A stretch of 64,000 bases of DNA, taken from assembly GCA_029260855.1 (NCBI GenBank), contig JAJDCK010000001.1:1705-65704 (forward strand). Reading direction: 5' to 3'. This stretch comes from Candidatus Saccharimonadota bacterium (GTDB lineage Bacteria > Patescibacteriota > Saccharimonadia > Saccharimonadales > OFTM59). Below, in pieces: positions 3,702 to 38,285 of the stretch; position 1 is the stretch's first letter, and the number at the start of each line of letters is the position of its first letter. The notes under the pieces are model-generated. The model was not told the DNA's origin. It saw nothing but the letters and a program-made list of their open reading frames with translations, and did not search any database. The position numbers and the translations under genes were made by a program.

Positions 3702-4712
3702 TTATACAGGGGTCTTCTTTTTGGATGACTGCGCATTAACTTCGTAACTAGTGTTGATAGATTCAAAGAAGTTAACAAGCTCAAGCGTATCATTAGCTGT
3801 AGCCATCCATTTAGCTGGGTTACTGACTTTGTACTCAGCCTCAAAGCCAAGCTCTTCCAGTCTACGATCCGCCAGATATTTAACGTATTGATTTATGTAG
3901 TCAGCGTTCAGCCCCAATATACCATTAGGAAGCAGGTCTTTATTATATTGCTCTTCCATAGCAACACCGTCTAGTATCATTTGTTTGATTTCTTGTGCAA
4001 ACTCTTCGGTTTGCAAGTCCGGGTTTTCTTCCAGCACGGTCAGTATTAGGTTGATCCCGAACTTGAGGTGGAGGGACTCATCCCTTACAACCCAACTGAT
4101 TAGTGATCCGAAGTTGCGTAGCAAATTGCGCTGGCGGAAAGACAGAGCAACCATGAAACCGCTATAGAACCAAAGTCCTTCTAGGATAATATTGTAGGCC
4201 ACTAAATTACGGACAAAATCTTTCTTGCCCTCAGTGGTAGTAATATCTATTTGGTTCTCGGTCATGCGTTTGATGAATTTGACCTCAAATTCTTCTTTTT
4301 TGATCATTGAGGGAACTGTTACATGGGCGGCATACGAATCTTCGCGCTCGATAGGAAATGTTTCCAGCACATACTCGAAACTCATGCAATGATTAGCTTC
4401 TTCCCACATCTGTTTGGCCAGGTACATGTGCGCTTCTGGCGCGTTGATGTATGGATAAACACCAAAGGCCAGAGCCTTATTGACTAACAGCTCATTTGGA
4501 TTAAAATAGCTCATTAAAAATTTTAGAGCGTGTTTCTCTTCGTCGCTGAATCTTTTGAAGTCAGCCAGATCTAAGTCAAGCTGAATCTCGTTAGGAAACC
4601 ATGTGTTACGCACCGCTTGCTCGTATAAATCATAGGCCCACTGATAACGGATCGGTTTAAGCAATAAGCCGTCTTGTATACCTGTCCCTAAAATACCCTT
4701 TGGTTGCGCCAT
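3702..4712 (-). CDS. nrdB: ribonucleotide reductase small subunit R2, class Ic-like (Phe at the radical site)
   Basis: Start taken at MAQPKGILG, ATG at 4710-4712, 1 nt after the upstream stop. Ferritin-like ligands are E74, E105-x2-H108, EGLWFYSGF and RDESLHLKFG. It aligns by eye along its length with Chlamydia trachomatis R2. Confidence 0.9.
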   Translation of the reverse strand: MAQPKGILGTGIQDGLLLKPIRYQWAYDLYEQAVRNTWFPNEIQLDLDLADFKRFSDEEKHALKFLMSYFNPNELLVNKALAFGVYPYINAPEAHMYLAKQMWEEANHCMSFEYVLETFPIEREDSYAAHVTVPSMIKKEEFEVKFIKRMTENQIDITTTEGKKDFVRNLVAYNIILEGLWFYSGFMVALSFRQRNLLRNFGSLISWVVRDESLHLKFGINLILTVLEENPDLQTEEFAQEIKQMILDGVAMEEQYNKDLLPNGILGLNADYINQYVKYLADRRLEELGFEAEYKVSNPAKWMATANDTLELVNFFESINTSYEVNAQSSKKKTPV

Positions 4713-4713: not shown

Positions 4714-4923
4714 TTATTCACACCCTTCGCACTGAAACGCGTCTTGCGGGTCAACAGGCGCATTTATATTCAACCCCTTAATTTTTGCCCGAGCCTTTTG
4801 TTGTTCGGCTGCAATCGCTTGGGCGATCTGATTTAATTTTTCTTCTATATCCTCTTCAGCGTCGTCGATAGCGTCAACTGCATTCATTAATTTTTGTATT
4901 GTTTTGTTTGTGCTAGAAGCCAT
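4714..4923 (-). CDS. small helical protein with a C-terminal CEGC motif, between nrdA and nrdB
   Basis: 69 aa with AGGAG 8 nt upstream of the ATG. Its stop lies 1 nt before the nrdB ATG (TAA G ATG). The C-terminus is ...DAFQCEGCE. Confidence 0.65.
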   Translation of the reverse strand: MASSTNKTIQKLMNAVDAIDDAEEDIEEKLNQIAQAIAAEQQKARAKIKGLNINAPVDPQDAFQCEGCE

Positions 4924-4946
4924 GCTGTTTTCTCCTATTTATTAGT

Positions 4947-7340
4947 TTATGCGCTTGTTCGCTTAGCAAACCCGAAGCCTGCTTTGTTCTTTGAAATACT
5001 GGTAGACTTATTAACCTTAACCGTGCTTTGTTCTGCCGTGTGCCGCGGCTTCATATGCAGGTAATATGTGGTCTTTAGGCCTTTTTCCCACGCCTTGGTA
5101 TAGATATCGACCATATCGTCTATTTCGCGTGTTTCTAGGTACATGTTTCGTGACATGGATTGGTCAATCCACTTTTGGGCTCGTGCAGCTACCTCTATAA
5201 AAGCATATGGCGATAACTGGAACGAGGTCTTGTACACATCCCGGACTTCCTGAGGTATAGCCTCTATCTCCTGAATATCACCTTGAGCACGCAAAATATC
5301 TTCGCGAACTTCTTCCCATATACCTAACTCTTTTAGGTCATTCACAAGGTTAGCGTTCACTTCTAGGAACTTGCCATTTAGAGTGGCTCTGCTGAAAATC
5401 TGTGAAAACTGCGGATCAATTCCTGGTGTTGTGCCAGCAACATGGGCAATATTGGCCGTTGGTGCTATGGCCATCAGCGTTGCGTTGCGCATGCCCTTCT
5501 TGACTTTTTTGCGCAGCTTAGCCCAGTCCATTCTTTGAGTACGGTTTACTTCAATTTTGACTTTTCGATCCTTAGCAGTTGTTTCAAGCGTATCAAACGG
5601 GACCACACCTTGACTCCAGCGTGAACCTTTGTAGTTCGGGTAGCTTCCACGCTCTTCTGCTAGGCTAGCGCTTTCATCAATCGCATGGTAGCTGACAAAC
5701 TCCGCAATGCGATCGCTAAGCTCATAGGCCTGCTCGCTGTCGTACGGGAAACCAAGTCGCTCAGTTACGTCCGTAAAACCCATCACGCCCAGGCCAACGG
5801 CTCTGTTCATTTTGTTGGAATGCATGGCTTCGGGAATTGGGGTGGTTGTTATGTCAATCAGGTTATCTAGCTGGCGAATAGCAGAACGAACGCTAGATTC
5901 TAGGCGCTTCCAGTCAAAATCTTTCTGTTCATCTAGTAGGTGAGCCGACAAGTTAAGGCTAGCCAGGTTACACACCGCAATATTGTTCTCATCTTGCGGT
6001 AAGCATATCTCAGTACAAAGATTAGACATGTGAATAGTACCCGTGTTGTTGTTGAGGGCGCGGTTGTTGGTGGTGTCCTTCCAGGTCAGCCACGGATGCG
6101 AGGTAGTTTGTAGACTCATCAGTATTGATCTGAACTGCTCGCGCGCCTTAATTCTCTTGAATACACGCATCTTTCCGGATTCGGCTAGCTTGACATATTC
6201 GTTGTAACGCTTAGAAAAGGCAGAGCCGTAAAGCTCGTTTAGATCACTGACTTCAGCTGGGTCAAACAAATACCAGTCAGCGTCATTTTTCACTCGTTTC
6301 ATAAACTCGTCCGAAATCCATACGGCAGTATTGGCCGTTCTGGCGCGACGATAGGGGTCGCCAGAGTTTTGTTTAAGGTCAAGATACTGTGGGAAGTCGA
6401 GGTGCCAGTTTTCTAAGTAGAAACAAAGCGCGCCTGCCTTTTTCCCTTTGCGGCTGACAGCTCGCAAAATCGAGTCAACGGTATGCATGTAGGGTATAGG
6501 GCCAGTAGACACCGTATTTGTGCTGCGTACTGGCGAACCCTCCGCGCGAAGCTTGGTCATACTAAGGCCTATACCGCCAGTACCCTTACTCATCCACATG
6601 ACGTCACGGTTGGCTTTTGCGATTGATTCAATATCGTCCTGGACCTCCATCAAGAAACAGTTAGCTAGTTGCGGGAAGTGCGTACCAGCGTTAACGTTAG
6701 TTGAGCCGCCAGGGATATAGTCCAAGCGAGACATGTGCTCATAAAAGTTCAGTGCTGCTTCTGTTGGGTTCTTTTCGTTGAAGCTCAACCCCATCGCAAC
6801 ACGCATACGCGAATACTGAGGCACCTCAATCGTCTCGCCGTCTAGTCTACGCAAAGAGTAGCGATTCCGGCTAGTAATAACCCCAAGGTACTTCATAAGA
6901 TTGTCTCTTGAAGGGTCAATAGCAAGCGCAAGCTTTTTAAGGTCAAAAAGTTTGTCGTTCATGCGCTTGTCAAGTAGCCCCTCACGGACGCCATCCTTGA
7001 TATATTGAATAAATTTGGTCCGGTGAAGTTCTACCAGTTCTTCGTCAGTGTTGAAGTCGCCCAAAACTTGCTTGTAAATAGTTTTGAGCAGCAAGCGTGC
7101 CGCTATCGTGTCATAGTCAGGATCATCTTTGACGTTCTGTAGCGCAGTGTTGATCGCCGCTTGGTCCAGCTGCGTAGTAGTAATACCGTCAAACAATGTC
7201 AGCGACAGCTCAGTCGCAATCTGAACCACCTTAGAAATTTGGTCTGGGAGACCCCTTGACGCGCGCTCCAGCGCACGATTGATTCTGTCGGCGTTGTACG
7301 GCTCTCTCTTACCGTCGACGTGCTGGACAGTGATATCCAT
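4947..7340 (-). CDS. nrdA: ribonucleotide reductase large subunit R1 (class I)
   Basis: N-terminal ATP-cone-like segment (VDGKREPYNADRINRALERA) and active-site SNLCTEI. 797 aa, with no Cys in the last ~40 residues. Confidence 0.92.
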   Translation of the reverse strand: MDITVQHVDGKREPYNADRINRALERASRGLPDQISKVVQIATELSLTLFDGITTTQLDQAAINTALQNVKDDPDYDTIAARLLLKTIYKQVLGDFNTDEELVELHRTKFIQYIKDGVREGLLDKRMNDKLFDLKKLALAIDPSRDNLMKYLGVITSRNRYSLRRLDGETIEVPQYSRMRVAMGLSFNEKNPTEAALNFYEHMSRLDYIPGGSTNVNAGTHFPQLANCFLMEVQDDIESIAKANRDVMWMSKGTGGIGLSMTKLRAEGSPVRSTNTVSTGPIPYMHTVDSILRAVSRKGKKAGALCFYLENWHLDFPQYLDLKQNSGDPYRRARTANTAVWISDEFMKRVKNDADWYLFDPAEVSDLNELYGSAFSKRYNEYVKLAESGKMRVFKRIKAREQFRSILMSLQTTSHPWLTWKDTTNNRALNNNTGTIHMSNLCTEICLPQDENNIAVCNLASLNLSAHLLDEQKDFDWKRLESSVRSAIRQLDNLIDITTTPIPEAMHSNKMNRAVGLGVMGFTDVTERLGFPYDSEQAYELSDRIAEFVSYHAIDESASLAEERGSYPNYKGSRWSQGVVPFDTLETTAKDRKVKIEVNRTQRMDWAKLRKKVKKGMRNATLMAIAPTANIAHVAGTTPGIDPQFSQIFSRATLNGKFLEVNANLVNDLKELGIWEEVREDILRAQGDIQEIEAIPQEVRDVYKTSFQLSPYAFIEVAARAQKWIDQSMSRNMYLETREIDDMVDIYTKAWEKGLKTTYYLHMKPRHTAEQSTVKVNKSTSISKNKAGFGFAKRTSA

Positions 7341-7589
7341 TGTACCCTCCTTATTTTTGTAAGTTTTAATTTTGCCTCAAGCTCGCCCGTTCAGGGTTAG
7401 CTAAAAAGTAAAAGCTCCCACTTTCACATCCAGCTTACACGTGCTGCCCAAAAACGTAAAGACCAAATTTTGGGGCAACTATACCGAACGCAATGGCGTC
7501 TGGCGTCGCAGTTACAGTTTAAAAACTACTGTTTTTAAACATTTTCAGGGGAAAACCTGAAATTCCGGACGCTGGGTGTAGTGCTTAGT

Positions 7590-7645
7590 ACACCATATGT
7601 AGCGCTCGTATTTGAGTATACTACTCTATGGGTAGTTGTTGTCAA
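7590..7645 (-). promoter_or_regulatory. putative nrdA promoter with two imperfect palindromes
   Basis: On the minus strand: TTGACA (7640-7645), then 16-19 nt, then TAGTAT/TATACT (7615-7623). The palindromes are CTACCCATAGAGTAG (7621-7635) and GCGCTACATATGGTGT (7590-7605), with centres ~31 bp apart. Confidence 0.4.
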
Positions 7646-23459: not shown

Positions 23460-23536
23460 TGGTGGAGCATAAGGGATTCGAACCCTTGACCTCTTCCATG
23501 CCATGGAAGCGCGCTAGCCAGCTGCGCCAATGCCCC
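23460..23536 (-). tRNA. tRNA-Ala(GGC)
   Basis: Manual cloverleaf: acceptor GGGGCAT/ATGCTCC with G3:U70, anticodon loop AUGGCAU, T-loop TTCGAAT, encoded CCA. Confidence 0.9.
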
Positions 23537-23561
23537 TTCAAAAAGTGCGGAGGCACATGCA

Positions 23562-23591
23562 ATTATAAATTATTGACGTGTGTCCCCTCAA
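23562..23591 (-). promoter_or_regulatory. putative promoter of tRNA-Ala
   Basis: On the minus strand: TTGAGG, 18 nt, TATAAT, about 25 nt upstream of the tRNA 5' end. Confidence 0.35.
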
Positions 23592-23764
23592 AAACTCAAC
23601 CGATTATAACAAAAACTACCCTTTATAGGTAGTTCTTGGTTTCGTGCGCGCCCACCCGGCGGCGGGTGGTTTTGTTTTGATTTTTGTTTCACGCGGCCGC
23701 CATGGACGCACGAGATACTTTTACCATAAGATTTATAAATCAACTTGTCAACCCAATTGTTTGG

Positions 23765-24499
23765 CTAGTTGCGCATCCTCCCTTCTAGAGGCTCGCTACG
23801 CTCATTTTCTAACGGCATAACGTAGATCGTGAGGCTTATGGCAAATATAACTGCGAAACCGCACATGATACTAGGCAGGCCCATTGCAGTGTGTGGCCAC
23901 AGTAAGTTAATAGTGCTCGTTGGTATAATAAATGCAGCGTAGCTTAAAATCTGGGCTTTCAGAGCCTTGCGGACAGAAAGCTTTGCTTTGCGCGCAAAGC
24001 TAGAAGCAAAATACATAGTCACAAACAGCCAGATATAATAATGAATAAAAAACAGCCCACCAATAGGTGGCTGCAGCTGAAATATTACGTAATTACCCCC
24101 GCATGTATACCCTGTAAATGCTTGTGGGCTCAGCATAAATAGCCCCAGCCACAGGGCGCTGGTAGTATAAGCCAAAACCGTTATGCGACCCATCGGTTTC
24201 TTGGCAATCGCATGCGTCAAATGAAGTCCAAGCGACGGCAGCACTGTAATTGCAGCATATCCTATCCGCGACCAAGTTGGTGCGTTTACGCCCAGGCCAC
24301 CGCATACGAAGTATTCGGCTAGTTGAAAGGTTGCCAAACACACCAACAAGGTCGCGACCAGCCTTGTTACGCGACTCATCCTATATTTGAGCAACACGTA
24401 AGCGGCCATTCCAAGCTCAAGTAAAAAGGTCGCCATCATAACCGGTGGCGAAAAGCAGTATAGTTTGTTTGTTTTTTGTTTCACGATCAGCCTTGGCAC
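23765..24499 (-). CDS. multi-pass membrane protein, unknown function
   Basis: 244 aa with ~7 hydrophobic helices. Confidence 0.55.
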   Translation of the reverse strand: MPRLIVKQKTNKLYCFSPPVMMATFLLELGMAAYVLLKYRMSRVTRLVATLLVCLATFQLAEYFVCGGLGVNAPTWSRIGYAAITVLPSLGLHLTHAIAKKPMGRITVLAYTTSALWLGLFMLSPQAFTGYTCGGNYVIFQLQPPIGGLFFIHYYIWLFVTMYFASSFARKAKLSVRKALKAQILSYAAFIIPTSTINLLWPHTAMGLPSIMCGFAVIFAISLTIYVMPLENERSEPLEGRMRN

Positions 24500-24532
24500 T
24501 ATATTAACAGGCTTAATGTGAGTTGTGAAAAC

Positions 24533-26557
24533 TTAATTCAGCAAGCCTAGTAGTTGCTTTTCGTGTATAACGTGCGTACCAAACTTTTCAGCTCTAGCAA
24601 GTTTATTGGCGCCGACGTTAGCGCCCACCACTAAATAGTCCGTATCTTTGCCTAGGGATGACTGGAAGGTACCACCAAGGGCACGAATCCTTTCGGCTGC
24701 TTCTTCACGGCTCATGGACTCTAAGGAACCGGTAACTACAAATCTTTTCCCAGAAAGCTTGCCGCCGACCGTCTTAACATCTTGGGGCCACACACCAAGG
24801 CTGCGGAACTTGGCCAAAATACGCTGATTGTCATCATCCTCAAACCAAAACAGGATAGATTCGGCCACAATATCTCCGACACCTTCTACCTCCCTCAAGT
24901 CATTAAACGTAGCGTTGCCGAGGGTGTCTAAGCGTTTAAATCGATTAGCTAGATCTACTGCGGTTTGTACGCCCACATGCCTTATACCTAATCCGTACAA
25001 AAATCTGGCTAGCGGCGGGGTTTTTTGGGATTGTATGGCGTTAACCAGTTTTGTGGCCGATATTTCTGCAAAACGGTCCAGTCCTAGCAAATCTTCTTTT
25101 TTAAGTTCATATATATCCGCCGTGTCATTTATTAGACCAGAGTTGAGTAGTGCTATAACGTTCTTCTCGCCCAAGCCTTCTATATCAAGTGCCGCTTTGC
25201 TGGCGTAGTGCTGAATCCTCTTCCAGACGCGTGAAGGACAGCTGTTGTTCGGGCAGCGCCAGACAGCTTCGTCAGCCTTTAACTTTACCAGTCTAGTGCT
25301 GCATTCCGGGCAGTCCAAAGGCATCGTGAACTCTTTTTCCGTACCGGTGCGCAGTCTTAGTAAAGGCTCGATAACTTCGGGTATTATGTCTCCCGCCTTA
25401 TGGATAATCACCGTGTCGCCAACACGAATGTCCTTGCGTTTTACTTCGCTTTCGTTATGCAGGGTAGCCATCTGCACAGTGCTTCCGGCAACTAAAACGG
25501 GCTCCAATATAGCTACAGGCGTGGCCGACCCGGTACGGCCGATTGATATGAATATGTCTTTGACTTTTGTGGTCGCCTGTTCGGCTGGATATTTGTAAGC
25601 TGCAGCGCCACGCGGGGCCTTACCTACCACACCTAACCTGGCGTAAAGCAAACGATCGTTCACTTTTATAACCAGCCCATCAGTATTAAACGGCAGCTTG
25701 GCTCGCTTTTCTTCCCATTGATTTGCAAAATCCAGAATGTCTTTGCTGTCTTTTGCAAGCTTTGTTTCTGAATTTGCCTGTAGACCCAACTCACGTATAG
25801 CCTTGTATGCAAAATTATTAGTCACCACCTCACCGGGATCGTCGCGCAGTATGTCATACGAGTGAAAATGCAGCGGCCTTTCCGCAACTAGATTAGGGTT
25901 GAGCTGTCTTATTGTACCGGCGGCCGTGTTGCGAGGATTAGCAAATAATGGCTGTCCACTGGCGGCACGGGATTCGTTTAGTCTGGAAAAGTCTTTTTTA
26001 TACATGACTATTTCACCGCGAATTTCAGTGCGTCCTTTTAAAAATTTTTCGTACCCTGCGGCCTTACGCAGTCTGAGCGGCACCGACTCAATAGTTCGCA
26101 CATTAGCCGTTACGTCCTCACCAACCCGCCCATCGCCGCGAGTAACCGCACTAGTCAATATTCCATCTTCATAAACCAGCGCTGCCGCGAACCCGTCCAT
26201 CTTTAAGTCCATAAAATACTCCAGCCTAACGCTTGGCGGCAAAAATTTTTTAATCCGTTTAATCCACGCTTCTAGCTCGATTTGGTTAAACACATCGTTA
26301 AGACTGAGCATAGGTATACGATGCCCGATTGTTCGAAACCCTGAAATGGGCTCACCCGCCACCCTCTGGGTTGGCGAGTCCGGGGTTATTAGATCCGGGT
26401 ACTGGTCTTCAAGCTGGGTCAGCTCATGCTTAAGACTGTCGGCCGCCGCCTCGCTCATGACCGATTCGTCAAGCACGTGGTAGTGATACCTGTAGTCAGA
26501 TATTAGTTCGCGTAGTTTTTTAATACGCTCAGCTGCTTTTAGTTTATCGTTTTTCAT
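24533..26557 (-). CDS. ligA: NAD-dependent DNA ligase
   Basis: Start taken at MKNDKLKAAERI. KMDG adenylation motif, four-Cys zinc finger (CPECSTRL...CPNNSC), HhH and C-terminal BRCT. Confidence 0.93.
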   Translation of the reverse strand: MKNDKLKAAERIKKLRELISDYRYHYHVLDESVMSEAAADSLKHELTQLEDQYPDLITPDSPTQRVAGEPISGFRTIGHRIPMLSLNDVFNQIELEAWIKRIKKFLPPSVRLEYFMDLKMDGFAAALVYEDGILTSAVTRGDGRVGEDVTANVRTIESVPLRLRKAAGYEKFLKGRTEIRGEIVMYKKDFSRLNESRAASGQPLFANPRNTAAGTIRQLNPNLVAERPLHFHSYDILRDDPGEVVTNNFAYKAIRELGLQANSETKLAKDSKDILDFANQWEEKRAKLPFNTDGLVIKVNDRLLYARLGVVGKAPRGAAAYKYPAEQATTKVKDIFISIGRTGSATPVAILEPVLVAGSTVQMATLHNESEVKRKDIRVGDTVIIHKAGDIIPEVIEPLLRLRTGTEKEFTMPLDCPECSTRLVKLKADEAVWRCPNNSCPSRVWKRIQHYASKAALDIEGLGEKNVIALLNSGLINDTADIYELKKEDLLGLDRFAEISATKLVNAIQSQKTPPLARFLYGLGIRHVGVQTAVDLANRFKRLDTLGNATFNDLREVEGVGDIVAESILFWFEDDDNQRILAKFRSLGVWPQDVKTVGGKLSGKRFVVTGSLESMSREEAAERIRALGGTFQSSLGKDTDYLVVGANVGANKLARAEKFGTHVIHEKQLLGLLN

Positions 26558-27521
26558 GCGGTAGAAGTTCCCTGTAAAAACCATACATATAGCTGTGCAC
26601 TACAGCCAGACTAAGCATGGTTAAAACAAAAAAAGTCCATTCGGCAACAGGCGTCACATACAAGATTAGGGGGACCATGATTATCGCGGCCAGTAGCACT
26701 AAAATCACAGGCAAAAATATGACCTTTCTCATAGCCGACCATCGACGATGGCGGACTAGCCCCCTAGCCGAGCGAAGTGCTTGCATAGGGCGCATATCCG
26801 GTAGGGTCACTACGTACAGCGCAAAAATCGACGAGCTAATCATATAGAGAGACAAGAGCCCTGTCATGCCTAGCAGTAACTGCCAAACAACTTTTTCGCC
26901 AAGATTAATAGCCAAACCATTTCCTACGACCAATCCATATATTGTCGTACCGATTACGAGCGGTATTAGCTGCAAACCAATCACCAACATAACAATAATA
27001 AAAGGTATGAGCGGTGACATGCCGTTATAAAATGCATCGCGAATGCCTACCTTGCTGTTAGCGTGCGCTTGCCGAAGCGCCCATATTAAAGCCAGACTAA
27101 TTATTACGAGTAGCATTGATTGGTATATTGACGCCGTTTCACTCTCTACATTACCGGACGATGTGGCTAGAAAACCAAATATAGCAACGCTCGTGATAAG
27201 TTTGCCGTCACCGTCCGTAAGGGCCTCTTCCAGAGCTGACTTTATAGCTGGTAGGTTATTGCTTACCCCTAAGCCTTTTACTAGCATTATAGTCAATAAG
27301 AGATAGATGAGCATGATCCCAAAAAAAAGTTTTTTGTTAGCTACAAGTCGCCTGATCGCCGTTTTAAATAGTTTAAATGAGCTGGGTAGAGGGGGTCCCG
27401 GGTGCTTGATACGCTTACTTAAACGGAACGAACTATAGGTTGGTGGCCGGATCTTTCGCGATGATTTATTGGCTGCTATGGGAGCCTTTTTGGGGGGTAT
27501 TTTTTTGCTAGTTTTAGACAT
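26544..27521 (-). CDS. membrane protein with a K/P-rich N-terminus, unknown function
   Basis: Start taken at MSKTSKK, 1 nt after the htpX stop. About 6 TM helices. Confidence 0.55.
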   Translation of the reverse strand: MSKTSKKIPPKKAPIAANKSSRKIRPPTYSSFRLSKRIKHPGPPLPSSFKLFKTAIRRLVANKKLFFGIMLIYLLLTIMLVKGLGVSNNLPAIKSALEEALTDGDGKLITSVAIFGFLATSSGNVESETASIYQSMLLVIISLALIWALRQAHANSKVGIRDAFYNGMSPLIPFIIVMLVIGLQLIPLVIGTTIYGLVVGNGLAINLGEKVVWQLLLGMTGLLSLYMISSSIFALYVVTLPDMRPMQALRSARGLVRHRRWSAMRKVIFLPVILVLLAAIIMVPLILYVTPVAEWTFFVLTMLSLAVVHSYMYGFYRELLPHEKR

Positions 27522-27522
27522 T

Positions 27523-28401
27523 TTAGGCTCCACGCCCCATGTCTCGTAGGGCCTTAACTCGCTGCTCTATAGGTGGGTGGGTGCTGAATAAACTCGCCAG
27601 CGCTCGGCCTTTAAGAGGATTTGCAAAAAACAAATGGGCCGTAGAGGCGTTTTGGCGTTGCAGCCTACTACCTTGTGTGCCGATTTTTTCTAAGGCGCTA
27701 GCCAATCCCTCGGGGTAACGTGTCATCAAGGCTCCGCTGGCATCGGCCAAATACTCACGGCGCCTGGAAATCGCGAGCTGTATCAGTGTTGCAACAATTG
27801 GAGCCAAGACCGCCCCGACTATGCCTAAGACAAAAAAGACCTGGCTACTGTTGTTTTCGCCATCACGGTCCCTAAACCAGGTCATCCGCAGCATTATGTC
27901 GGCAAGTATGGAGATCACCGCTACTAACGCAAATACTACAAGCGACACCCTTATGTCGTAGTTCTTGATATGGCCCAGTTCATGAGCCATAACACCTTCC
28001 AGCTCTTGGTCGGTCGTTGCGTTAAGCAGCCCCGTAGTCACACCAACCACGGAATGGTTTGGGTCCCTTCCGGTTGCAAATGCATTCAATGCACGATCTT
28101 CAATGACATAAATCTTCGGCATCGGCAAGCCTTCTGTAATAGCCAGGTTCTCTACGATACGCCAGAGCCTTGGGTCGTCGCTTTTTTTAATCTCATGCGC
28201 TCCGTTCAAGCCAAGCGCCATCTTAGTGCCGGCTAAGTAACTGATAAGCGCATATATAGCCGCGCCAACCAGCACAAACGGCGTAATCGCCGGTTGGCCT
28301 GCATACTCGCCGAACAACCACCCCAGGCCAGCTACCATCGCCACGAACAGAGCCATCATCAGTACAGTCTTCCGCTTATTGGCAGCAATTTGTGAATACA
28401 T
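27523..28401 (-). CDS. htpX: M48 zinc metalloprotease HtpX
   Basis: HELGHIKN zinc motif, TM helices and REYLAD. Confidence 0.9.
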   Translation of the reverse strand: MYSQIAANKRKTVLMMALFVAMVAGLGWLFGEYAGQPAITPFVLVGAAIYALISYLAGTKMALGLNGAHEIKKSDDPRLWRIVENLAITEGLPMPKIYVIEDRALNAFATGRDPNHSVVGVTTGLLNATTDQELEGVMAHELGHIKNYDIRVSLVVFALVAVISILADIMLRMTWFRDRDGENNSSQVFFVLGIVGAVLAPIVATLIQLAISRRREYLADASGALMTRYPEGLASALEKIGTQGSRLQRQNASTAHLFFANPLKGRALASLFSTHPPIEQRVKALRDMGRGA

Positions 28402-28419
28402 CTTAGCCCCGGTGTTTGA

Positions 28420-28977
28420 CTAAAATTTAACTGTCGTAGGGTTAGCAATATTGGCTGATTCGGTTTCATCCACCTCAAAGAATTCGCGTTCCTTGAAACC
28501 CATCGTGCCAGCAAAAATATTTGTAGGGAATGTTTGAGCTTTTATGTTAAGGTCACGAGCTGAACCGTTATAAAAGCGCCTGGCAGCCTGAACCTTATCT
28601 TCGGTATCTACCAGCTCTTCTTGCAAGTGCTTAAAGTTCTCGTTGGCTTTGAGGTCAGGATAAGCCTCGGCTACAGCAAAGATGCTTTTCATGGCTGACT
28701 GAAACATATTGTCAGCCTTAGCTGCTTCGTGTGGCGTCTGTGCTCCCAGCATACTGGCGCGCGCTTTGGTAACACTTTCAAACGCTTCTTTCTCGTGTGT
28801 GGCGTAACCCTTGACGGTTTCAACTAGGTTAGGCACCAAGTCGGCCCGGCGCTTTAGCTGGACCGTGATATCGCTCCACGCTTCGTTTACACGCACATTA
28901 GCGCGGACCAAACCGTTATACATTGCAATTAAGCCAATTATTACAACCGCGACAATTATCAAAATAATAGTTAACAC
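28420..28977 (-). CDS. lemA: LemA family protein
   Basis: N-terminal TM helix plus LemA pattern (YNGLV, WSDITVQLKRRADLVPNLV, RFYNG). Typical lemA-htpX pair. Confidence 0.88.
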   Translation of the reverse strand: MLTIILIIVAVVIIGLIAMYNGLVRANVRVNEAWSDITVQLKRRADLVPNLVETVKGYATHEKEAFESVTKARASMLGAQTPHEAAKADNMFQSAMKSIFAVAEAYPDLKANENFKHLQEELVDTEDKVQAARRFYNGSARDLNIKAQTFPTNIFAGTMGFKEREFFEVDETESANIANPTTVKF

Positions 28978-29112
28978 TGCAGTTCCCCCTTTATGCTAGT
29001 ACCTTAATTATAACACTGCTACGCTTAAAATATTCATACAATTATGCCGCAAAGATGTGCTCTGTTCGCAGACAAGAAAAAAGCCCTATCCATTTAGATA
29101 GAACCTTTTTCG

Positions 29113-29198
29113 TGGTGGGCGAGGAGGGACTCGAACCCTCAAGACTTTTGGTCAGCGGATTTTAAGTCCACCGCGTATACCAATTCCGCCACTCGCCC
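29113..29198 (-). tRNA. tRNA-Leu(UAA)
   Basis: Manual fold: acceptor GGGCGAG/CTCGCCC, anticodon loop CUUAAAA, long variable arm, encoded CCA. Confidence 0.9.
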
Positions 29199-29219
29199 GG
29201 CGTGGATAAGGACGCAGTC

Positions 29220-29227
29220 ATTATACA
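29220..29227 (-). promoter_or_regulatory. extended -10 (TGTATAAT) upstream of tRNA-Leu(UAA)
   Basis: On the minus strand, TGTATAAT ends ~21 nt before the tRNA 5' end. Confidence 0.35.
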
Positions 29228-29300
29228 GGACGGGCACAGGGGTCCCCAAGCCGAGAGGATTCGACTTGGGGTAAAGCGAGGCTGTGCACGGAAGCTGGAA

Positions 29301-29328
29301 GTAAAAAGCTTCCGGTTTTTACGGAAGC
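29301..29328 (-). terminator. intrinsic terminator after tRNA-Cys
   Basis: On the minus strand: GCTTCCG-TAAAAAC-CGGAAGC followed by TTTTTAC. Confidence 0.55.
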
Positions 29329-29346
29329 TGAAGCTGCACAATGAGC

Positions 29347-29420
29347 TGGAGGCGCGTACCGGAATCGCACCGGTGTACAGGGTTTTGCAGACCCTTGCCT
29401 AACTACTCGGCCAACGCGCC
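29347..29420 (-). tRNA. tRNA-Cys(GCA)
   Basis: Acceptor GGCGCGT/ACGCGCC, anticodon loop CUGCAAA, discriminator U73 (a Cys identity element), encoded CCA. The T-loop TGCGATT is unusual. Confidence 0.85.
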
Positions 29421-29437
29421 ATCACGAAATCCCTACC

Positions 29438-29446
29438 ATTCTACCA
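29438..29446 (-). promoter_or_regulatory. extended -10 (TGGTAGAAT) upstream of tRNA-Cys
   Basis: On the minus strand, TGGTAGAAT lies ~17 nt upstream of the tRNA 5' end. Confidence 0.3.
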
Positions 29447-29501
29447 GACTACCATCGCTGCACAGTAATAGTGTGTCTGGATTTTCGCGTAATCCGAGCA
29501 G

Positions 29502-29529
29502 TTGTAAGTCTTGTAGAATGCGATATAAT
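29502..29529 (+). promoter_or_regulatory. putative promoter of the 29579 gene
   Basis: TTGTAA, 16 nt, TATAAT, about 50 nt upstream of the ATG. Confidence 0.4.
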
Positions 29530-29578
29530 ACAAACTAAGTAAACATAAGTACCGTCAAAATAGGTCTGGTTAATAAAA

Positions 29579-29935
29579 ATGACAGAGGGGTTGACAGGGC
29601 GCACAGGAAGCGAAAAGATGAGCAGTAACGAGTGGTTGCAGCTTTATGAAGCGGCGGTTGACGATTTACGCAGCGCGAACGTCGATATTGCCTCTAGCTT
29701 TTTGAACGGCCGTCAACCGGGCCAATACCCACTCTCTACACTACTTATTGCCCAAGCTAGGGCCGACAATGCGGGAGCAATGTTAGATTGTCTTTTGGCT
29801 GATTGGCCCGAGTTTGCCGCAAGGGTTAACGAGCCTCTAGAGCAAAAGGCTAGCAAAGAAGTTGCTGATGATTCGCAGCGGCTTTTACGCCCTACCTTTG
29901 TTCAAAAGATCGCTAATTTTTTAAGCACATCCTAG
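29579..29935 (+). CDS. hypothetical protein
   Basis: 118-aa ORF, one of the few plus-strand genes, with its own promoter-like element. Confidence 0.5.
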   Translation: MTEGLTGRTGSEKMSSNEWLQLYEAAVDDLRSANVDIASSFLNGRQPGQYPLSTLLIAQARADNAGAMLDCLLADWPEFAARVNEPLEQKASKEVADDSQRLLRPTFVQKIANFLSTS

Positions 29936-29992
29936 GTAAACGAATCAGTCTTAAGCTTGCCCGCACTTTCGTGACCGAGCTTTATGTGTGAG

Positions 29993-30256
29993 TTATTTTC
30001 GCTTAGTTTTTGTGGAAAGTCTGTCTAATAATGATGATTGGAGCAGGTTCCAGACAATTGAATTTACAAAAAAAGCTGCAATAGCAATTAGCGCTATAAG
30101 TACTATGTTGTGGCCCAACTCACCATTGAATAGACTGATAATTCCTGCGAGCATTACGACTATCACAGTCAACGCCAGATAGGCATGCTGCAGCTTTTGC
30201 CGTTCACTCTTTTGCGCATTCCAACTATTTAGCGAATCTTTTAGAACCTCAAACAT
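29993..30256 (-). CDS. small two-TM membrane protein
   Basis: GGAGAT RBS 4 nt before the ATG and two clear TM helices. Preferred over the antisense 29988..30182 ORF. Confidence 0.55.
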   Translation of the reverse strand: MFEVLKDSLNSWNAQKSERQKLQHAYLALTVIVVMLAGIISLFNGELGHNIVLIALIAIAAFFVNSIVWNLLQSSLLDRLSTKTKRK

Positions 30257-30502
30257 CCATATCTCCTATAATTAGATATATTATACTACCATTATATTTT
30301 TATGTCAATTTTATATTATTCCTATGTAGTTAGTCAGTTAAAAAAGTTATATATTGAAAAAAGTGCCCTATACGCGTCTCTTTTGGTTTCAGTTTGGTGC
30401 GGAGCTACAGAATTTACTTAAACTTTTTGGAGCGCTGGTTGACGGTAGTCTATCAAGCGCACCGCGCATTCCTGTTTCGCTCAAAAGCAGGGAGCTTGTT
30501 AT

Positions 30503-31459
30503 CTATTGAGCCTTACGCAAGCCCTCACGCCCCAGGCTGAGCCAATAATCAGTCTCTTCTGTGTCATTACCGTTTATATACTTCTCTTGGTGTGCGCCCA
30601 TAAATTCCATAGCTACGCCAGCAAGTGCGTATGCAGGTAGATACTTGCGCTCCTGGTCGGTCAGTGGGCAAAACTCACCATACTCATCTGCTACCAGCTC
30701 GCATTTCCGCTCTAGTGTCTCTGTACCGTTATCGTGAAGTAAGTTGGCAACAATTACCGCCAGCTCCTGTATGCGCGGGTAGTGATTGGCAACTGAAAAA
30801 TCTAGGATATATATCTTGCCGTCTTCGCCTTTAATAACATTCGCTTTAGTGAAGTCACCGTGTACAAAACAGTGTGGCAGGTCGTCTGTAGGGATAGCAT
30901 CATAGCCTGCAATCGCTTGCTCAACTAATGGTAAGTCTTCTGGCGCAATATACTGCTCTACCTTTTCAAGCATCGCGTGAATGTTTGGAATAGCCCAGCT
31001 ATCAAATAAATAGGGTGGTTCATAATCAATACTGTTTACCATAGCTGCTTGTTCCAGTACGTCTTTACGCTCTTCGTCTGATGGGGAGCGGTCTAGCTCC
31101 AAGAAACTCTTACCTTCAACAAATCGCATTAAAACGAGCGTAACGCCACTATCGCTATATGTCGTTTCGCCAGTATCAGTTGTTAATAGTTCTGGGTGAT
31201 GTACCCCAGCCTGTACGACCTTTTCCATTGTGGTGGCATAGCGAGTAATGTCTTCTGGTGTTCGTGTCTTAGCAAACATTTTGGCGACAAACTTTGCTTG
31301 GTCGGTTTCTATAATGACATTGCAATCTTCATAACCGACTTCAACGATACTACTCGCACTCAACTGACCAACGCCATAAGTTTCACAGACACGCTCAATG
31401 ACTGGCGTAAGGTCGCCTGTGTAATTTAGCCGGTCCGCTGGTGTTTGAAGTTCAGACAT
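30503..31459 (-). CDS. aminoglycoside/choline-kinase-fold phosphotransferase (APH family)
   Basis: Brenner motif HGDFTKAN and ILDFS. Start taken at MSELQT (ATGTCTGA overlaps the upstream stop). Confidence 0.75.
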   Translation of the reverse strand: MSELQTPADRLNYTGDLTPVIERVCETYGVGQLSASSIVEVGYEDCNVIIETDQAKFVAKMFAKTRTPEDITRYATTMEKVVQAGVHHPELLTTDTGETTYSDSGVTLVLMRFVEGKSFLELDRSPSDEERKDVLEQAAMVNSIDYEPPYLFDSWAIPNIHAMLEKVEQYIAPEDLPLVEQAIAGYDAIPTDDLPHCFVHGDFTKANVIKGEDGKIYILDFSVANHYPRIQELAVIVANLLHDNGTETLERKCELVADEYGEFCPLTDQERKYLPAYALAGVAMEFMGAHQEKYINGNDTEETDYWLSLGREGLRKAQ

Positions 31460-32285
31460 CAGCCAATAATTCCAAGTCTTGCGCGGATAACTCAATTGCA
31501 GTTGCCGCAATATTTTCGTCAATGTGCTGCTTATTTATAGCTTTAGGGATAGGCAATGTACCCTGTGTAAGCAACCACGCTAAAGCGACCTGAGCTGCTG
31601 TAGCATTGTGAGCCTTTGCAATATCTTGTATGACTTCACTATCTAGCACTTCCTGCCTCTTAACAGGTTGATAGGCAACTATATGGATATTATTTTCTCG
31701 GCAGTAATCCCAAAACTCTTGATTAACTTCATCTTTATAAAGCACATTGTAGTTCATTTGATTTGCCACAATCGGATGCTTTGCAATTTTGCGTGTTTGC
31801 TCCATATCGGCAACCGTGAAGTTACTAACTCCAAAATCGCGGACTATTCCTTCGTCAATCAATTCGTCTATTTGCGGAATAGCTTCCTGCCAGTTCACCT
31901 CATCCCAAGGTGCGTGAATGTACAGCATATCTAGATAGTCAGTACCCAGCTTTTTGAGCATCTGTTCAACCGTTGCACGGACTAAGCCATCGCCAACGCT
32001 TGTTTTCCATAGCTTATCAGCAATATATAAATCTTCACGCTTTAAGCCAGCGATTGCTTGACCGACAACCTCATCGGTATGAAATGCCCCGTACAGCTCA
32101 GCACAATCAATATGGTTCTGACCTTTGGAAATTGAATAGCGTATAGCCTCAGTCTCGGCTGCTTCATTATCGTAATTAGGCTCAGCTCCTTTGTACTTAG
32201 CACCTGGGTCAGCAGTGAATGTGCCGCCAATGTTCCAAGTACCGATGCCGATTGGAAAAAGTGTTTTGCCTGATTTTGTTTTCAT
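31452..32285 (-). CDS. aldo/keto reductase
   Basis: AKR pattern (IGIGTW, DCAELYG, HAPW, GVSNF). Start is uncertain: M at 32285, 32294 or 32297. Confidence 0.8.
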   Translation of the reverse strand: MKTKSGKTLFPIGIGTWNIGGTFTADPGAKYKGAEPNYDNEAAETEAIRYSISKGQNHIDCAELYGAFHTDEVVGQAIAGLKREDLYIADKLWKTSVGDGLVRATVEQMLKKLGTDYLDMLYIHAPWDEVNWQEAIPQIDELIDEGIVRDFGVSNFTVADMEQTRKIAKHPIVANQMNYNVLYKDEVNQEFWDYCRENNIHIVAYQPVKRQEVLDSEVIQDIAKAHNATAAQVALAWLLTQGTLPIPKAINKQHIDENIAATAIELSAQDLELLADV

Positions 32286-32310
32286 GTATCTCATCATAAC
32301 AAAATATGCC

Positions 32311-34941: not shown

Positions 34942-35093
34942 TAGAATAAGTTTACATCTGTAAACAGAGTTTGCATATCATTCGTTTTTATTACCAACTA
35001 TTTTAGTACTTTAATACTACTAAATGGGCGGGGGTGGTCTCCCTTCACCCCCGTTAATGACACTCCGCTGTATAAATGCCCAATTTTTGGGGG

Positions 35094-35372
35094 TAGAATG
35101 ACCAAGCGTTTTTTTGGGAGGAAAAAGGAAGTGCCGAATTTATGGGACTGACTTTGAAAAACACATTTTTTGATACAATAGGGTTACATTAACAATCAAC
35201 CGAATTCATTGTGTAGCCAACGCGGAGACTGGACCGCTTCAAAAAACTTCAGGGGCGTTTACAGCGAATTAACTGTGTAGGAATTACGAGGACGGCTCGG
35301 CATAAAACGGACTTACTAGCGGACTAACTGAGGTTTTTACTTCAAGGGGTCACACGGGATGTCCGTTTTTTT
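35094..35372 (+). ncRNA. candidate structured RNA or leader upstream of the recombinase gene
   Basis: TAGAAT -10-like element at 35094-35099. There are no ORFs longer than 26 codons on either strand. A 9-bp long-range stem AAAACGGAC/GTCCGTTTT (35304-35312 / 35361-35369) is followed by a T7 run. Confidence 0.3.
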
Positions 35373-35538
35373 ATTACAAAACAACCTAGAGCTGAGTATG
35401 GTGTCGTTGCTCAGCATCCTTTCAAGCTACGCTGAAACAGCAAACCAAGAGAAACCATATCTAGTAAAAGATGGCGTTAAAATCATTTTATAGACATACG
35501 CCTAAAGCTGCTTAAACTCTGTAAAGGATTATATACTT

Positions 35539-37258: not shown

Positions 37259-37312
37259 ATGTTTGAACTGACATATTCTGTCAGAGTTCTGTGAGTTTTT
37301 AAAGAGCACGTT

Positions 37313-37330: not shown

Positions 37331-37358
37331 GTCACGCTAGCGCAACCACATTCTGCGG

Positions 37359-38284: not shown

Positions 38285-38285
38285 T

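What the first reader, a model, noticed from the sequence alone, without database searches (positions are those of the whole stretch)
4714..4923. Stand-alone 69-aa protein ending in CEGCE inserted between nrdA and nrdB, while NrdA has no C-terminal cysteines
Class I R1 proteins normally end in a flexible tail with a Cys pair that re-reduces the active-site disulfide (E. coli CESGAC). Here NrdA ends ...KNKAGFGFAKRTSA with no Cys in the tail. A separate gene follows 23 nt later in a different frame, with its own AGGAG RBS. It encodes a charged, helical 69-aa protein whose last residues are FQCEGCE, and its stop lies 1 nt from the nrdB ATG. This suggests the redox-shuttle tail has become a separate, translationally coupled subunit. 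Alternatively it may be a fixed frameshift that is tolerated.
Basis: partly seen in the sequence, partly recalled or inferred. Interest (0 to 1): 0.6.

Follow-up and report, generated by a model that had tools for sequence, protein, structure and literature searches.

The report
Detached redox tail of ribonucleotide reductase
The cysteine-bearing tail that normally ends the large subunit of class I ribonucleotide reductase is here a separate, conserved 69-residue protein, and relatives of this small protein are also carried by phages that have no reductase genes nearby.

Summary
All three genes lie on the minus strand: nrdA (7340..4947, no Cys after residue 457), a 69-aa ORF (4923..4714) with its own AGGAG, and nrdB (4712..3702, TAAgATG junction). 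The 23-nt spacer has stops in all frames, and two independent assemblies reproduce it, so this is not a frameshift error.

The ORF belongs to an unannotated family: about 56 clusters at 50% identity, no Pfam, NCBIfam or PHROG model. Members have a helical hairpin and a flexible tail ending P-[VIL]-D-P-x-D-x3-C-E-G-C-Q. Synonymous sites are saturated while pN is 0.07-0.31.

The tail matches the C-terminus of full-length NrdA in Parcubacteria. In a metagenome sample, 64 of 64 NrdAs next to a separate tail gene had no tail Cys, and 11 of 11 fused NrdAs had the Cys pair. Split NrdAs form one clade, Saccharibacteria plus a high-GC branch. The high-GC branch includes a Microbacterium MAG, where the tail is an uncalled 22-32-aa ORF.

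The family also occurs in phage genomes without RNR genes in the stretch fetched, and as glutaredoxin-tail fusions.

Best reading: a trans-acting dithiol shuttle for a tail-less class Ic RNR. It parallels split class II NrdJa/NrdJb but is not homologous to NrdJb. No biochemistry or complex model was obtained.

The parts
4947..7340 (-). nrdA, class I RNR catalytic subunit, 797 aa (ATP-cone, all-alpha domain, barrel). It ends shortly after a conserved KxGFGFAK motif and has no C-terminal cysteine pair. The active-site cysteines C228, C442 and C457 are present.
   Evidence: Pfam PF03477, PF00317 and PF02867. NCBIfam NF005101 matches profile positions 1-788 of 822. Cysteine positions. Best PDB relative is 5im3.
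4924..4946 (-). 23-nt nrdA/small-ORF spacer with the Shine-Dalgarno AGGAG at 4936..4932, 8 nt before the ATG. It has stop codons in all three frames.
   Evidence: Sequence read directly. Equivalent SD-like sites precede the ORF in L001, L004, L005, L008 and L009.
4714..4923 (-). Small ORF of 69 aa plus stop: the stand-alone NrdA-tail protein. It has a helical hairpin (residues 7-17 and 26-48) and an unstructured tail (residues 49-69).
   Evidence: Homologues. dN/dS. AF2 model with mean pLDDT 75.5. No Pfam, NCBIfam or PHROG family.
4717..4758 (-). Conserved C-terminal module P56-V-D-P-Q-D-A-F-Q-C65-E-G-C68-E69, proposed to be the redox-active CxxC shuttle. D58, P59, C65 and C68 are invariant in 60 family members.
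   Evidence: Alignment A2. The same motif ends fused NrdA proteins.
3702..4712 (-). nrdB, radical-generating subunit, 336 aa, with the class Ic signature. Its ATG is 1 nt after the small ORF's stop (TAAgATG), which suggests translational coupling.
   Evidence: Pfam PF00268 and NCBIfam NF007186. Best PDB relatives are C. trachomatis R2c 1syy and 4d8f. Phe aligns with Ct F127 and Glu with the first metal ligand.
7618..7645 (-). Promoter-like site TTGACA-16-TAGTAT, about 275 nt upstream of the nrdA ATG. It is a possible operon promoter.
   Evidence: Consensus scan only, and no more such sites than in shuffled sequence. Weak evidence.

Best explanation
The 69-aa ORF encodes the detached C-terminal redox tail of the class I (Ic-type) RNR large subunit.

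An ancestral nrdA encoded a barrel, a KxGFG motif, a variable linker and a tail ending ...DPxDxxxCEGCQ. This gene was split just after the GFG motif. NrdA kept the catalytic machinery, including the C228/C457 pair that is oxidised at each turnover, but lost the cysteine pair that re-reduces it.

The small protein now supplies that pair in trans. Its flexible tail (C65-x-x-C68) would enter the NrdA active site and reduce the disulfide by thiol-disulfide exchange. It would then be re-reduced by a thioredoxin, glutaredoxin or NrdH-type redoxin encoded elsewhere. The added helical hairpin, with its conserved LEEKLxxI face, probably provides the affinity that covalent tethering used to give. The stop-1nt-ATG junction with nrdB couples its synthesis to that of the reductase.

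Shown here: homology of the tail, complementary distribution, purifying selection, operon linkage, independence as a gene, and the helix-plus-tail architecture. Inferred: the redox shuttle activity, the docking role of the helices, and the identity of the external reductant.

Phage-borne copies, some fused to a glutaredoxin domain, most likely feed electrons to the tail-less NrdA of the host during infection.
For: 1. Tail homology. Fused NrdA relatives end ...(V/I)HxPEDPxDxxxCEGCQ or ...CP[VI]DPxxxLQC[DE]SCQ. The small ORF ends APVDPQDAFQCEGCE.

2. Complementarity. 64/64 NrdAs encoded beside a separate tail ORF have no Cys after the YY dyad and end about 43 aa after it. 11/11 fused NrdAs carry the pair about 96 aa after it.

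3. The split NrdAs form one clade, distinct from the fused clade named Nomurabacteria/Pacebacteria.

4. It is a real gene. The family has about 56 representative clusters, with D58, P59, C65 and C68 invariant. dN/dS is 0.03-0.14. Every locus examined has its own SD.

5. It is an independent unit. It lies between nrdA and nrdB in about 65 sampled loci, after nrdB in one subclade, and in phage replication modules with no RNR gene in the fetched stretch.

6. Link to redox chemistry. Glutaredoxin (PF00462, CAPC)-tail fusions occur in L132, L175 and L054.

7. The window NrdA retains the active-site cysteines, so it still needs re-reduction.

8. AF2 gives two helices and a flexible C-terminal tail.

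9. Precedent. In split class II RNR, NrdJb carries the C-terminal cysteines and mediates thiol-disulfide exchange for NrdJa (PMC4520616). The normal role of the alpha tail cysteines is described in PMC11903788 and PMC6187632.
Against: - There is no biochemical evidence and no model of the complex. The only attempt to see where the tail docks gave mean pLDDT 54 and is unusable (AF2 of a fused NrdA).
- No thioredoxin, glutaredoxin, NrdH or thioredoxin reductase gene lies in the 64-kb window, so the electron source is unidentified.
- A free 69-aa protein, and even more so a 22-32-aa peptide in the actinobacterial relatives, loses the high local concentration of a tethered tail. Efficient turnover therefore requires a binding site that has not been shown.
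- A CxxC preceded by acidic residues could also bind a metal.
- The taxonomic labels rest on a few named records.
Confidence: 0.8

Rival explanations
1. A sequencing or assembly frameshift, or programmed recoding, so that in reality a single NrdA polypeptide with a CxxC tail is made.
For: The small ORF follows nrdA closely and in another frame. In some high-GC relatives the mini-ORF overlaps the nrdA stop as ATGA. Some long-read assemblies of relatives contain indel errors: nrdA is broken in L006 and L007.
Against: The 23-nt spacer has stops in all three frames, including the small ORF's own frame. Two independent assemblies have the identical junction. The ORF has a conserved N-terminus and its own SD across homologues down to 52% identity. 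Spacing varies from an overlap to about 90 nt. In some lineages the gene lies after nrdB or in phages.
Confidence: 0.02
2. The small protein is a metal-handling or assembly factor for the class Ic NrdB Mn/Fe cofactor. It would use the acidic DPxD and CxxC end to bind metal, rather than acting as an electron shuttle for NrdA.
For: It is translationally coupled to nrdB (TAAgATG). NrdB has the class Ic signature and needs a heterodinuclear cofactor. CxxC motifs with nearby carboxylates can bind metals (general knowledge).
Against: The motif is homologous to the NrdA tail of fused relatives. It is present as a separate gene exactly where NrdA has lost its own cysteines. Glutaredoxin fusions point to dithiol chemistry. 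Fused-NrdA clades with similar NrdB do not have the extra gene.
Confidence: 0.05
3. The small protein regulates or inhibits the reductase. It would be a tail mimic that occupies the NrdA active-site entrance, as yeast Sml1 interferes with the R1 C-terminal tail. Tail-less NrdA would be reduced directly by a redoxin or a small-molecule thiol. Phage copies would then manipulate host dNTP synthesis.
For: Phages carry the gene without RNR genes in the stretch fetched, which is compatible with host manipulation. NrdJa alone shows a small activity with DTT, so active sites can be reached directly by small reductants (PMC4520616). The Sml1 analogy is from my own knowledge and was not tested here.
Against: Both cysteines are invariant, and the gene is tightly linked to and coupled with nrdA and nrdB in the operon. 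This fits an obligatory stoichiometric component better than an inhibitor. An inhibitor would not need a redox-competent CxxC or a fused glutaredoxin.
Confidence: 0.07
4. The ORF is a decaying remnant of the old tail with no present function. The reductase would use an external reductant directly.
For: The literature notes that some RNRs without C-terminal cysteines may use small-molecule reductants (class II discussion in 10.1101/2022.04.23.489257).
Against: Synonymous sites are saturated while the protein is conserved. D58, P59, C65 and C68 are invariant and L30 and I33 are conserved in at least 90% of 60 divergent members. The family has acquired a new conserved helical domain and has spread to phages.
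Confidence: 0.02

Closest known systems
Split class II RNR NrdJa/NrdJb (Pseudomonas aeruginosa and a few gamma-proteobacteria; PMC4520616)
   Same: The catalytic polypeptide lacks the C-terminal cysteines, and a second, adjacent gene product carries them. NrdJb was shown to mediate reductive dithiol exchange. The split lies at the C-terminal extension of an ancestral single chain.
   Different: That enzyme is class II and B12-dependent, with no NrdB. [quoted passage not shown] The protein here is 69 aa, all-helical plus a tail, with only two cysteines and no detectable homology to NrdJb. The class II split was described as confined to a few close relatives; this class I split spans Saccharibacteria, a high-GC actinobacterial branch and phages.
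Canonical class I NrdA C-terminal tail (E. coli C754/C759; B. subtilis NrdE C695/C698; PMC11903788)
   Same: A flexible C-terminal segment with a CxxC at the extreme end, which in known enzymes re-reduces the active-site disulfide and is then reduced by thioredoxin, glutaredoxin or NrdH. The small ORF's end is homologous to such a tail in fused relatives.
   Different: Here the tail is not part of NrdA. It is a free polypeptide with its own start, SD and an added helical hairpin. [quoted passage not shown]
Glutaredoxin fusions to RNR components (Facklamia ignava Grx::NrdB and viral Grx::NrdA/NrdB; PMC6187632)
   Same: Parts of the RNR electron-delivery chain are covalently rearranged, often in viruses. 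The fused Grx acts as the reductant of the NrdA tail cysteines.
   Different: In the phage proteins found here, the glutaredoxin is fused to the tail module alone, with no NrdA or NrdB attached. The window's protein has no redoxin domain.
NrdH, thioredoxin and glutaredoxin, the small CxxC proteins that serve RNR
   Same: Small size, a CxxC pair and genomic association with RNR genes. All would carry reducing equivalents to the enzyme.
   Different: The small ORF has no thioredoxin fold: no Pfam hit, and the AF2 model is two helices plus a coil with no beta-sheet. Its CxxC sits at the extreme C-terminus of a disordered tail, not at the N-terminus of a helix in a folded domain.

Membership tests
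Class I RNR alpha C-terminal redox tail (as a detached module) | CxxC pair at the extreme C-terminus of a flexible segment | tested here: met
   C65-E-G-C68-E69-stop. AF2 shows residues 49-69 without secondary structure, pLDDT about 62. Both Cys are invariant in 60 members.
Class I RNR alpha C-terminal redox tail (as a detached module) | Sequence homology to the tail of full-length NrdA in related enzymes | tested here: met
   Fused NrdAs end ...PEDPxDxxxCEGCQ or ...P[VI]DPxxxLQC[DE]SCQ. A concatenated query aligned over 100% of its length to fused fragments P0059, P0097, P0103 and P0109.
Class I RNR alpha C-terminal redox tail (as a detached module) | The partner NrdA lacks its own tail cysteines but keeps the active-site cysteines | tested here: met
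   Window NrdA has Cys only at 228, 306, 442, 446 and 457. 64/64 split-locus NrdAs have no Cys after the YY dyad.
Class I RNR alpha C-terminal redox tail (as a detached module) | Reduces the active-site disulfide and is re-reduced by a redoxin | not testable with these tools
   Needs enzyme assays. The only indirect support is the glutaredoxin-tail fusions.
Split RNR of the NrdJa/NrdJb type | Catalytic chain without C-terminal cysteines, plus an adjacent gene encoding them | tested here: met
Split RNR of the NrdJa/NrdJb type | Class II (B12-dependent) catalytic subunit with no NrdB | tested here: not met
   NrdA matches class I equivalog NF005101 at 1411 bits against a cutoff of 988. A nrdB gene follows.
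Split RNR of the NrdJa/NrdJb type | The second chain is a folded, cysteine-rich NrdJb-like protein | tested here: not met
   The protein is 69 aa with two Cys and no Pfam or NCBIfam hit. The model is helical hairpin plus coil. The NrdJb domain content is taken from PMC9669993.
Class Ic RNR (R2c-type NrdB) | Phe in place of the radical Tyr, and Glu in place of the first Asp metal ligand | tested here: met
   Alignment to C. trachomatis R2c 1syy: query EEANHCMSF against EEAVHTHTF, and FNPNELLV against FSTAESLV.
Class Ic RNR (R2c-type NrdB) | Mn(IV)/Fe(III) cofactor as radical initiator | not testable with these tools
   Requires spectroscopy and metal analysis.
Thioredoxin-fold redoxins (Trx, Grx, NrdH) | Thioredoxin fold with the CxxC at the start of a helix | tested here: not met
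   No PF00462 or PF00085 hit for the window ORF. The AF2 model has no strands. tblastn with the phage glutaredoxin-tail fusion matched only the ORF's tail, residues 76-99 of that query.
YfaE-type ferredoxin of nrdAB operons | 2Fe-2S ferredoxin domain with four ligand cysteines | tested here: not met
   Only two cysteines and no ferredoxin Pfam hit.

The most novel reading that the evidence does not exclude
Class I RNR in Saccharibacteria and a high-GC actinobacterial branch that includes a Microbacterium MAG has a third, diffusible micro-subunit: a dedicated electron shuttle of 22-75 aa. This subunit replaces the covalent alpha tail. Phages exploit the arrangement by carrying only this micro-subunit, sometimes pre-fused to a glutaredoxin, as a minimal auxiliary gene. 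It would plug into the host's tail-less NrdA and raise or re-route dNTP synthesis during infection.
Probability: 0.5. Interest if true: 0.85.

Novelty: new variant of a known kind. Interest (0 to 1): 0.72.

Why it matters
Reviews and primary papers state that class I RNR carries its re-reducing cysteine pair on the NrdA C-terminus (PMC6187632, PMC9669993). This clade breaks that rule in a way that can be tested cleanly.

- A detachable tail would allow the re-reduction half-cycle of a class I RNR to be titrated, mutated and labelled independently of the catalytic subunit. That is hard to do with a tethered, disordered tail.
- The 22-32-aa versions in high-GC actinobacterial contigs are absent from the gene calls at the loci checked. 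NrdA in those genomes would therefore look reductant-less to automated surveys.
- Phage copies suggest a new and very small auxiliary metabolic gene aimed at host nucleotide supply. They could also serve as a marker linking phages to hosts that have tail-less NrdA.
- The family has no Pfam, NCBIfam or PHROG model, and none of the ten members looked up carries a name from its source.

Tried and rejected
- AF2 of a natural fused NrdA (P0184, alignment A3 of 123 sequences, mostly at least 80% identical) was meant to show where the tail docks. Mean pLDDT was 54, so the model is unusable.
- Scanning the NrdA + small ORF concatenation against NCBIfam extended the NF005101 match only to profile position 803 of 822. 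This was inconclusive, because the linker is longer than in the profile.
- phmmer of a fused tail region against PDB sequences gave no hit. No solved structure could be tied to the motif.
- tblastn of a family member against INPHARED cultured-phage genomes gave no match. The phage copies are known only from IMG/VR and metagenomes.
- The search for related loci with the 60-member alignment failed for lack of a conserved 7-10-column stretch. It was replaced by a degenerate DNA pattern. That pattern requires D-P-x-D-x3-C-E-G-C-Q-stop (TAA or TAG), so C[DE]SCQ variants and TGA stops are under-sampled.
- The genome-contig scan found only one GTDB representative, because its patterns came from the narrow 6-member alignment.
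- Rfam found only tRNAs in the window and nothing in the nrdA leader.
- Text searches found no paper describing a split class I tail. The library is incomplete, so prior description cannot be excluded.
- The YlbD_coat Pfam hit (E = 0.0095, below the cutoff) was dismissed as a low-complexity helical match.
- The fused example P0084/L007 was set aside. It comes from an indel-prone assembly and lacks the GFG motif.

Full report
**1. What is in the window**

All three genes lie on the minus strand.

- nrdA (7340..4947) encodes a 797-aa class I catalytic subunit. It has an ATP-cone, an all-alpha domain and the barrel (Pfam).
- It scores 1411 bits against NCBIfam NF005101. It matches only profile positions 1-788 of 822, so the C-terminal end of the family profile is missing.
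- Its cysteines are at 228, 306, 442, 446 and 457. By motif, these include the active-site pair (LANCFL, AVCNLAS) and the thiyl-radical cysteine (SNLCTE). No cysteine follows, and the protein ends ...KNKAGFGFAKRTSA.
- After the TAA stop comes a 23-nt spacer, actaataaataggagaaaacagc. AGGAG sits 8 nt before an ATG.
- A 69-aa ORF follows (4923..4714), ending FQCEGCE. Its TAA is separated by one G from the nrdB ATG at 4712.
- nrdB (4712..3702, 336 aa) is closest to Chlamydia trachomatis R2c structures (1syy, 4d8f). It has Phe at the radical-tyrosine position and Glu at the first metal ligand. The operon is therefore class Ic-like.

**2. Not an artefact**

- The spacer has stops in all three frames, including TAA in the small ORF's own frame 15 nt before its ATG. 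No single indel fuses the ORFs.
- Two Logan assemblies from different sequencing runs reproduce the nrdA-nrdB stretch: 3631/3631 and 3627/3631 identical bases.
- Homologues at 88, 84, 74, 72 and 52% identity keep the start (MAxSxN), the length and the end. The 52% homologue (L001) keeps the nrdA-small-nrdB order. The 74% homologue (L004) has nrdB directly after the small ORF, with its contig ending upstream.
- Between these homologues synonymous sites are saturated (pS 0.6-1.0) while pN is 0.07-0.31. dN/dS is 0.03 and 0.14 for the two pairs where dS can be computed.
- Each locus has its own SD-like site, and several keep the stop-1nt-ATG junction with nrdB.

**3. A sizeable, unannotated family**

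- A profile of the six close homologues was searched against 1.84 billion cluster representatives. It found 58 hits at E <= 1e-3, and about 56 of them are 47-88-aa proteins.
- In the 60-member alignment, D58, P59, C65 and C68 are invariant. L30, I33, G67 and Q69 are at least 90% conserved.
- The architecture is a variable N-terminus, an amphipathic helix (LEEKLxxI[A/D]xA), a linker, and P-[VIL]-D-P-x-D-x3-C-E-G-C-Q at the very end.
- AF2 on this alignment gives helices 7-17 and 26-48 and an unstructured residue 49-69 tail (mean pLDDT 75.5).
- No Pfam, NCBIfam or PHROG family matches. None of the ten members looked up carries a name in its source database.

**4. The tail is the NrdA tail**

- A query made of the last 133 residues of NrdA joined to the small protein retrieved two kinds of NrdA C-terminal fragment.
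- Some fragments align over the whole query and end ...CP[VI]DPxxxLQC[DE]SCQ or ...GPEDPQDKLVCDSCQ. Others stop right after a conserved GFGFG motif with no cysteine.
- I then scanned metagenomes with a degenerate DNA pattern for D-P-x-D-x3-C-E-G-C-Q-stop.
- 75 of these loci included the NrdA C-terminus.
- In 64 the tail motif is on a separate ORF. All 64 NrdAs lack any Cys after the YY dyad and end a median of 43 residues after it, just past (R/K)KxGFGFAK.
- In the other 11 the motif is the end of NrdA itself, about 96 residues after YY. These read KRGFAxLRDK, a variable linker, then (V/I)HxPEDPxDxxxCEGCQ.
- The fission point is therefore just after the GFG motif.
- The fused proteins carry source names such as Candidatus Nomurabacteria and Pacebacteria. 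Named split examples are Candidatus Saccharibacteria.
- In a neighbour-joining tree of NrdA, all split enzymes form one clade separate from the fused clade. A GC-63% contig is the basal branch of the split clade. A single fission is the most parsimonious history.

**5. Micro-ORFs in actinobacterial relatives**

- NrdA fragments named Microbacterium sp. and Rhodoglobus sp. also end ...GFGFGG..KAGE with no cysteine.
- A 22-32-aa ORF sits directly after the tail-less nrdA, or overlaps its stop, in every such locus examined:
  - MMNEEYYVPVDPMDELQCDSCQ in L006
  - MRANQTSTTSSTSFTYEVPIDPMDELQCESCQ in L189, a Microbacterium MAG
  - MMNEENSIGGYSIPVDPMDDLQCDSCQ in L190
  - MMNEHDNVGEYMVPMDPMDLLHCEGCQ in L010 and L093
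- None of them appears in the gene calls for L006, L189 or L190.
- Here only the tail module survives, which suggests that this module can engage NrdA on its own.
- The window's NrdA is as similar to these high-GC enzymes as to many other Saccharibacteria enzymes: 68-70% against 66-79% for NrdA, and 75-81% against 68-88% for NrdB.
- This would fit gene transfer between Saccharibacteria and Actinobacteria, which from my own knowledge are known hosts of Saccharibacteria. I did not test the direction of transfer.

**6. The gene behaves as an independent unit**

- In about 65 sampled loci it lies between nrdA and nrdB. In one NrdA/NrdB subclade it lies about 0.5 kb after nrdB (L013, L029, L034, L036, L037, L056, L111).
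- About 20 metagenomic loci, and nearly all of 59 IMG/VR viral contigs found with the same pattern, have it with no nrdA or nrdB in the fetched stretch.
- The neighbours of these copies are phage genes (PHROGs). They include terminase large subunit, portal, major head protein, RNA ligase, polynucleotide kinase and a DNA-polymerase exonuclease subunit.
- Using six marker proteins from two of these phages (seven query sequences), 37 of 59 viral and 16 of 120 metagenomic loci carry phage markers. 87 of 120 metagenomic loci carry RNR genes. No locus carries both.
- The search pattern forces the last 12 residues, so I built a profile from the family alignment with the last 14 columns removed. It still matches 39/59 viral and 96/107 metagenomic ORFs at E < 1e-3, with no reversed decoy below 0.014. 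The phage proteins are real family members.
- Three loci (L132 and L175 viral, L054 metagenomic) encode a glutaredoxin domain fused directly to ...APIDPSDALACEGCQ. The domain is PF00462, E = 1.3e-14, with a CAPC active site. In the two viral loci the gene lies near a terminase-like gene.

**7. Mechanism**

Established knowledge of class I RNR applies here (PMC11903788, PMC6187632). The active-site cysteine pair is oxidised at each turnover. [quoted passage not shown] That pair is in turn reduced by thioredoxin, glutaredoxin or NrdH.

The window's NrdA keeps the active-site cysteines but has no tail pair. The only nearby source of a homologous pair is the small protein. The most likely mechanism is that the small protein acts in trans as the dithiol shuttle:

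- Its helical hairpin, or for the mini-peptides the PVDP motif itself, would provide binding.
- C65/C68 would reduce C228-C457.
- A redoxin encoded outside this window would regenerate it. tblastn with E. coli Trx, Grx, NrdH and TrxB found none in the 64 kb.

The stop-1nt-ATG junction suggests coupled translation with nrdB.

Homology, distribution, selection and architecture are shown here. Thiol-disulfide exchange, docking and the reductant are inferred. The glutaredoxin-tail fusions are the strongest indirect support for a redox role. Phage copies most plausibly raise or re-route electron supply to the host's tail-less NrdA. This is inference only.

**8. Comparison with known systems**

- The closest functional precedent is the split class II RNR NrdJa/NrdJb of P. 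aeruginosa, in which NrdJb carries the C-terminal cysteines and mediates dithiol exchange (PMC4520616). The present case works like that.
- It is not a member of that family. The enzyme is class I with NrdB, and the small protein has no NrdJb-like domains.
- It is not a thioredoxin-fold redoxin: it has no such domain, and the model has no strands.
- It is not a YfaE ferredoxin, because it has only two cysteines.
- Grx fusions to NrdA, NrdB, NrdD and NrdJ are known, including in viruses (PMC6187632). I did not find a Grx fused to the tail alone described anywhere.
- Large surveys of RNR C-termini describe class I as using a C-terminal CXXC. They discuss split enzymes only for class II (PMC9669993 and 10.1101/2022.04.23.489257).
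- Full-text searches found no description of a split class I tail. The library is incomplete.

**9. Limits**

- There is no biochemistry and no model of the complex. The one docking attempt failed.
- Phage loci are partial stretches of the contigs, so an RNR gene elsewhere on those contigs is not excluded.
- Host assignment of the phages is not established.
- GNAT proteins ending in the same 12-residue pattern (L038, L092, L123) remain unexplained. They may be a chance match forced by the pattern.

**10. Verdict**

This is a new variant of a known kind: a split RNR with a detached redox tail, now in class I, as a micro-protein that is also phage-borne. Confidence is about 0.9 that it is the detached tail homologue and about 0.8 for the whole mechanism as stated. 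Interest is 0.72.

Noticed in passing
L130-L188 (IMG/VR) and L015, L016, L017, L030, L041-L043, L052, L058, L060, L084, L085, L101: Stand-alone homologues of the small ORF sit in phage genomes, next to terminase, portal, major head, RNA ligase, polynucleotide kinase and DNA-polymerase exonuclease genes. No nrdA or nrdB lies in the fetched stretch, and no sampled locus carried both phage markers and RNR genes.
   Followed up: yes
L132 7678-7977, L175 2178-2465 (coordinates on the strand of the match), L054 221-508: A glutaredoxin domain (PF00462, CAPC) is fused directly to the RNR tail module (...APIDPSDALACEGCQ). In the two viral loci, L132 and L175, it lies about 1.3-1.5 kb upstream of a terminase-like gene. 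It looks like a reductant and shuttle in one polypeptide.
   Followed up: partly
L006 4594-4662; L189 591-689; L190 958-1041; L010 736-819; L093 7336-7419: High-GC contigs carry 22-32-aa ORFs ending ...VP[VI]DPMDxLQC[DE][SG]CQ immediately after, or overlapping, the stop of a tail-less nrdA. One is a named Microbacterium MAG. None is in the gene calls of L006, L189 or L190, the loci where calls were available.
   Followed up: yes
L038 6713-7294, L092 2-358, L123 1-1296 (oriented): GNAT acetyltransferase proteins (PF00583) in high-GC contigs end in DPADDALCEGCQ or DPADETACEGCQ and are not next to RNR genes. The match is forced by the search pattern, and the three proteins are homologous to each other. 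Chance or module capture is unresolved.
   Followed up: partly
window 4712 vs 4763 (minus strand): Public gene calls (L002, L003) start nrdB at the ATG at 4763, giving 353 aa and overlapping the small ORF by 50 nt. Alignment with homologues (MxxxGILGTGxQ) supports ATG 4712, giving 336 aa, one nucleotide after the small ORF's stop.
   Followed up: partly
window 3702-4712 (minus strand): NrdB has the class Ic signature: Phe at the radical-tyrosine site and Glu as the first metal ligand. Its best PDB relatives are C. trachomatis R2c. The operon's NrdA and NrdB are about as similar to high-GC actinobacterial enzymes as to other Saccharibacteria enzymes, which hints at gene transfer.
   Followed up: partly
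L013, L029, L034, L036, L037, L056, L111 (also L039, L121): In one NrdA/NrdB subclade (NrdB about 70% identical to the window's), the small gene lies about 0.5 kb downstream of nrdB instead of between nrdA and nrdB.
   Followed up: no
window 7341-7645 (minus strand): A promoter-like TTGACA-16-TAGTAT (7645..7618) leaves a leader of about 275 nt before the nrdA ATG. No Rfam family matches it, and I saw no clear NrdR box by eye.
   Followed up: no
window 23463-42544: Eight tRNA genes lie on the minus strand. Nearly all long ORFs in the window are on the minus strand, and GC skew is negative throughout. This is consistent with one replichore and co-oriented genes.
   Followed up: no
L104 1035-1343: A 102-aa protein with a different N-terminal region ends ...YFVPVDPNDLNECEGCQ. 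It lies near a peptidase-like gene (the M23 type was judged by eye, not tested). This looks like another context for the tail module.
   Followed up: no
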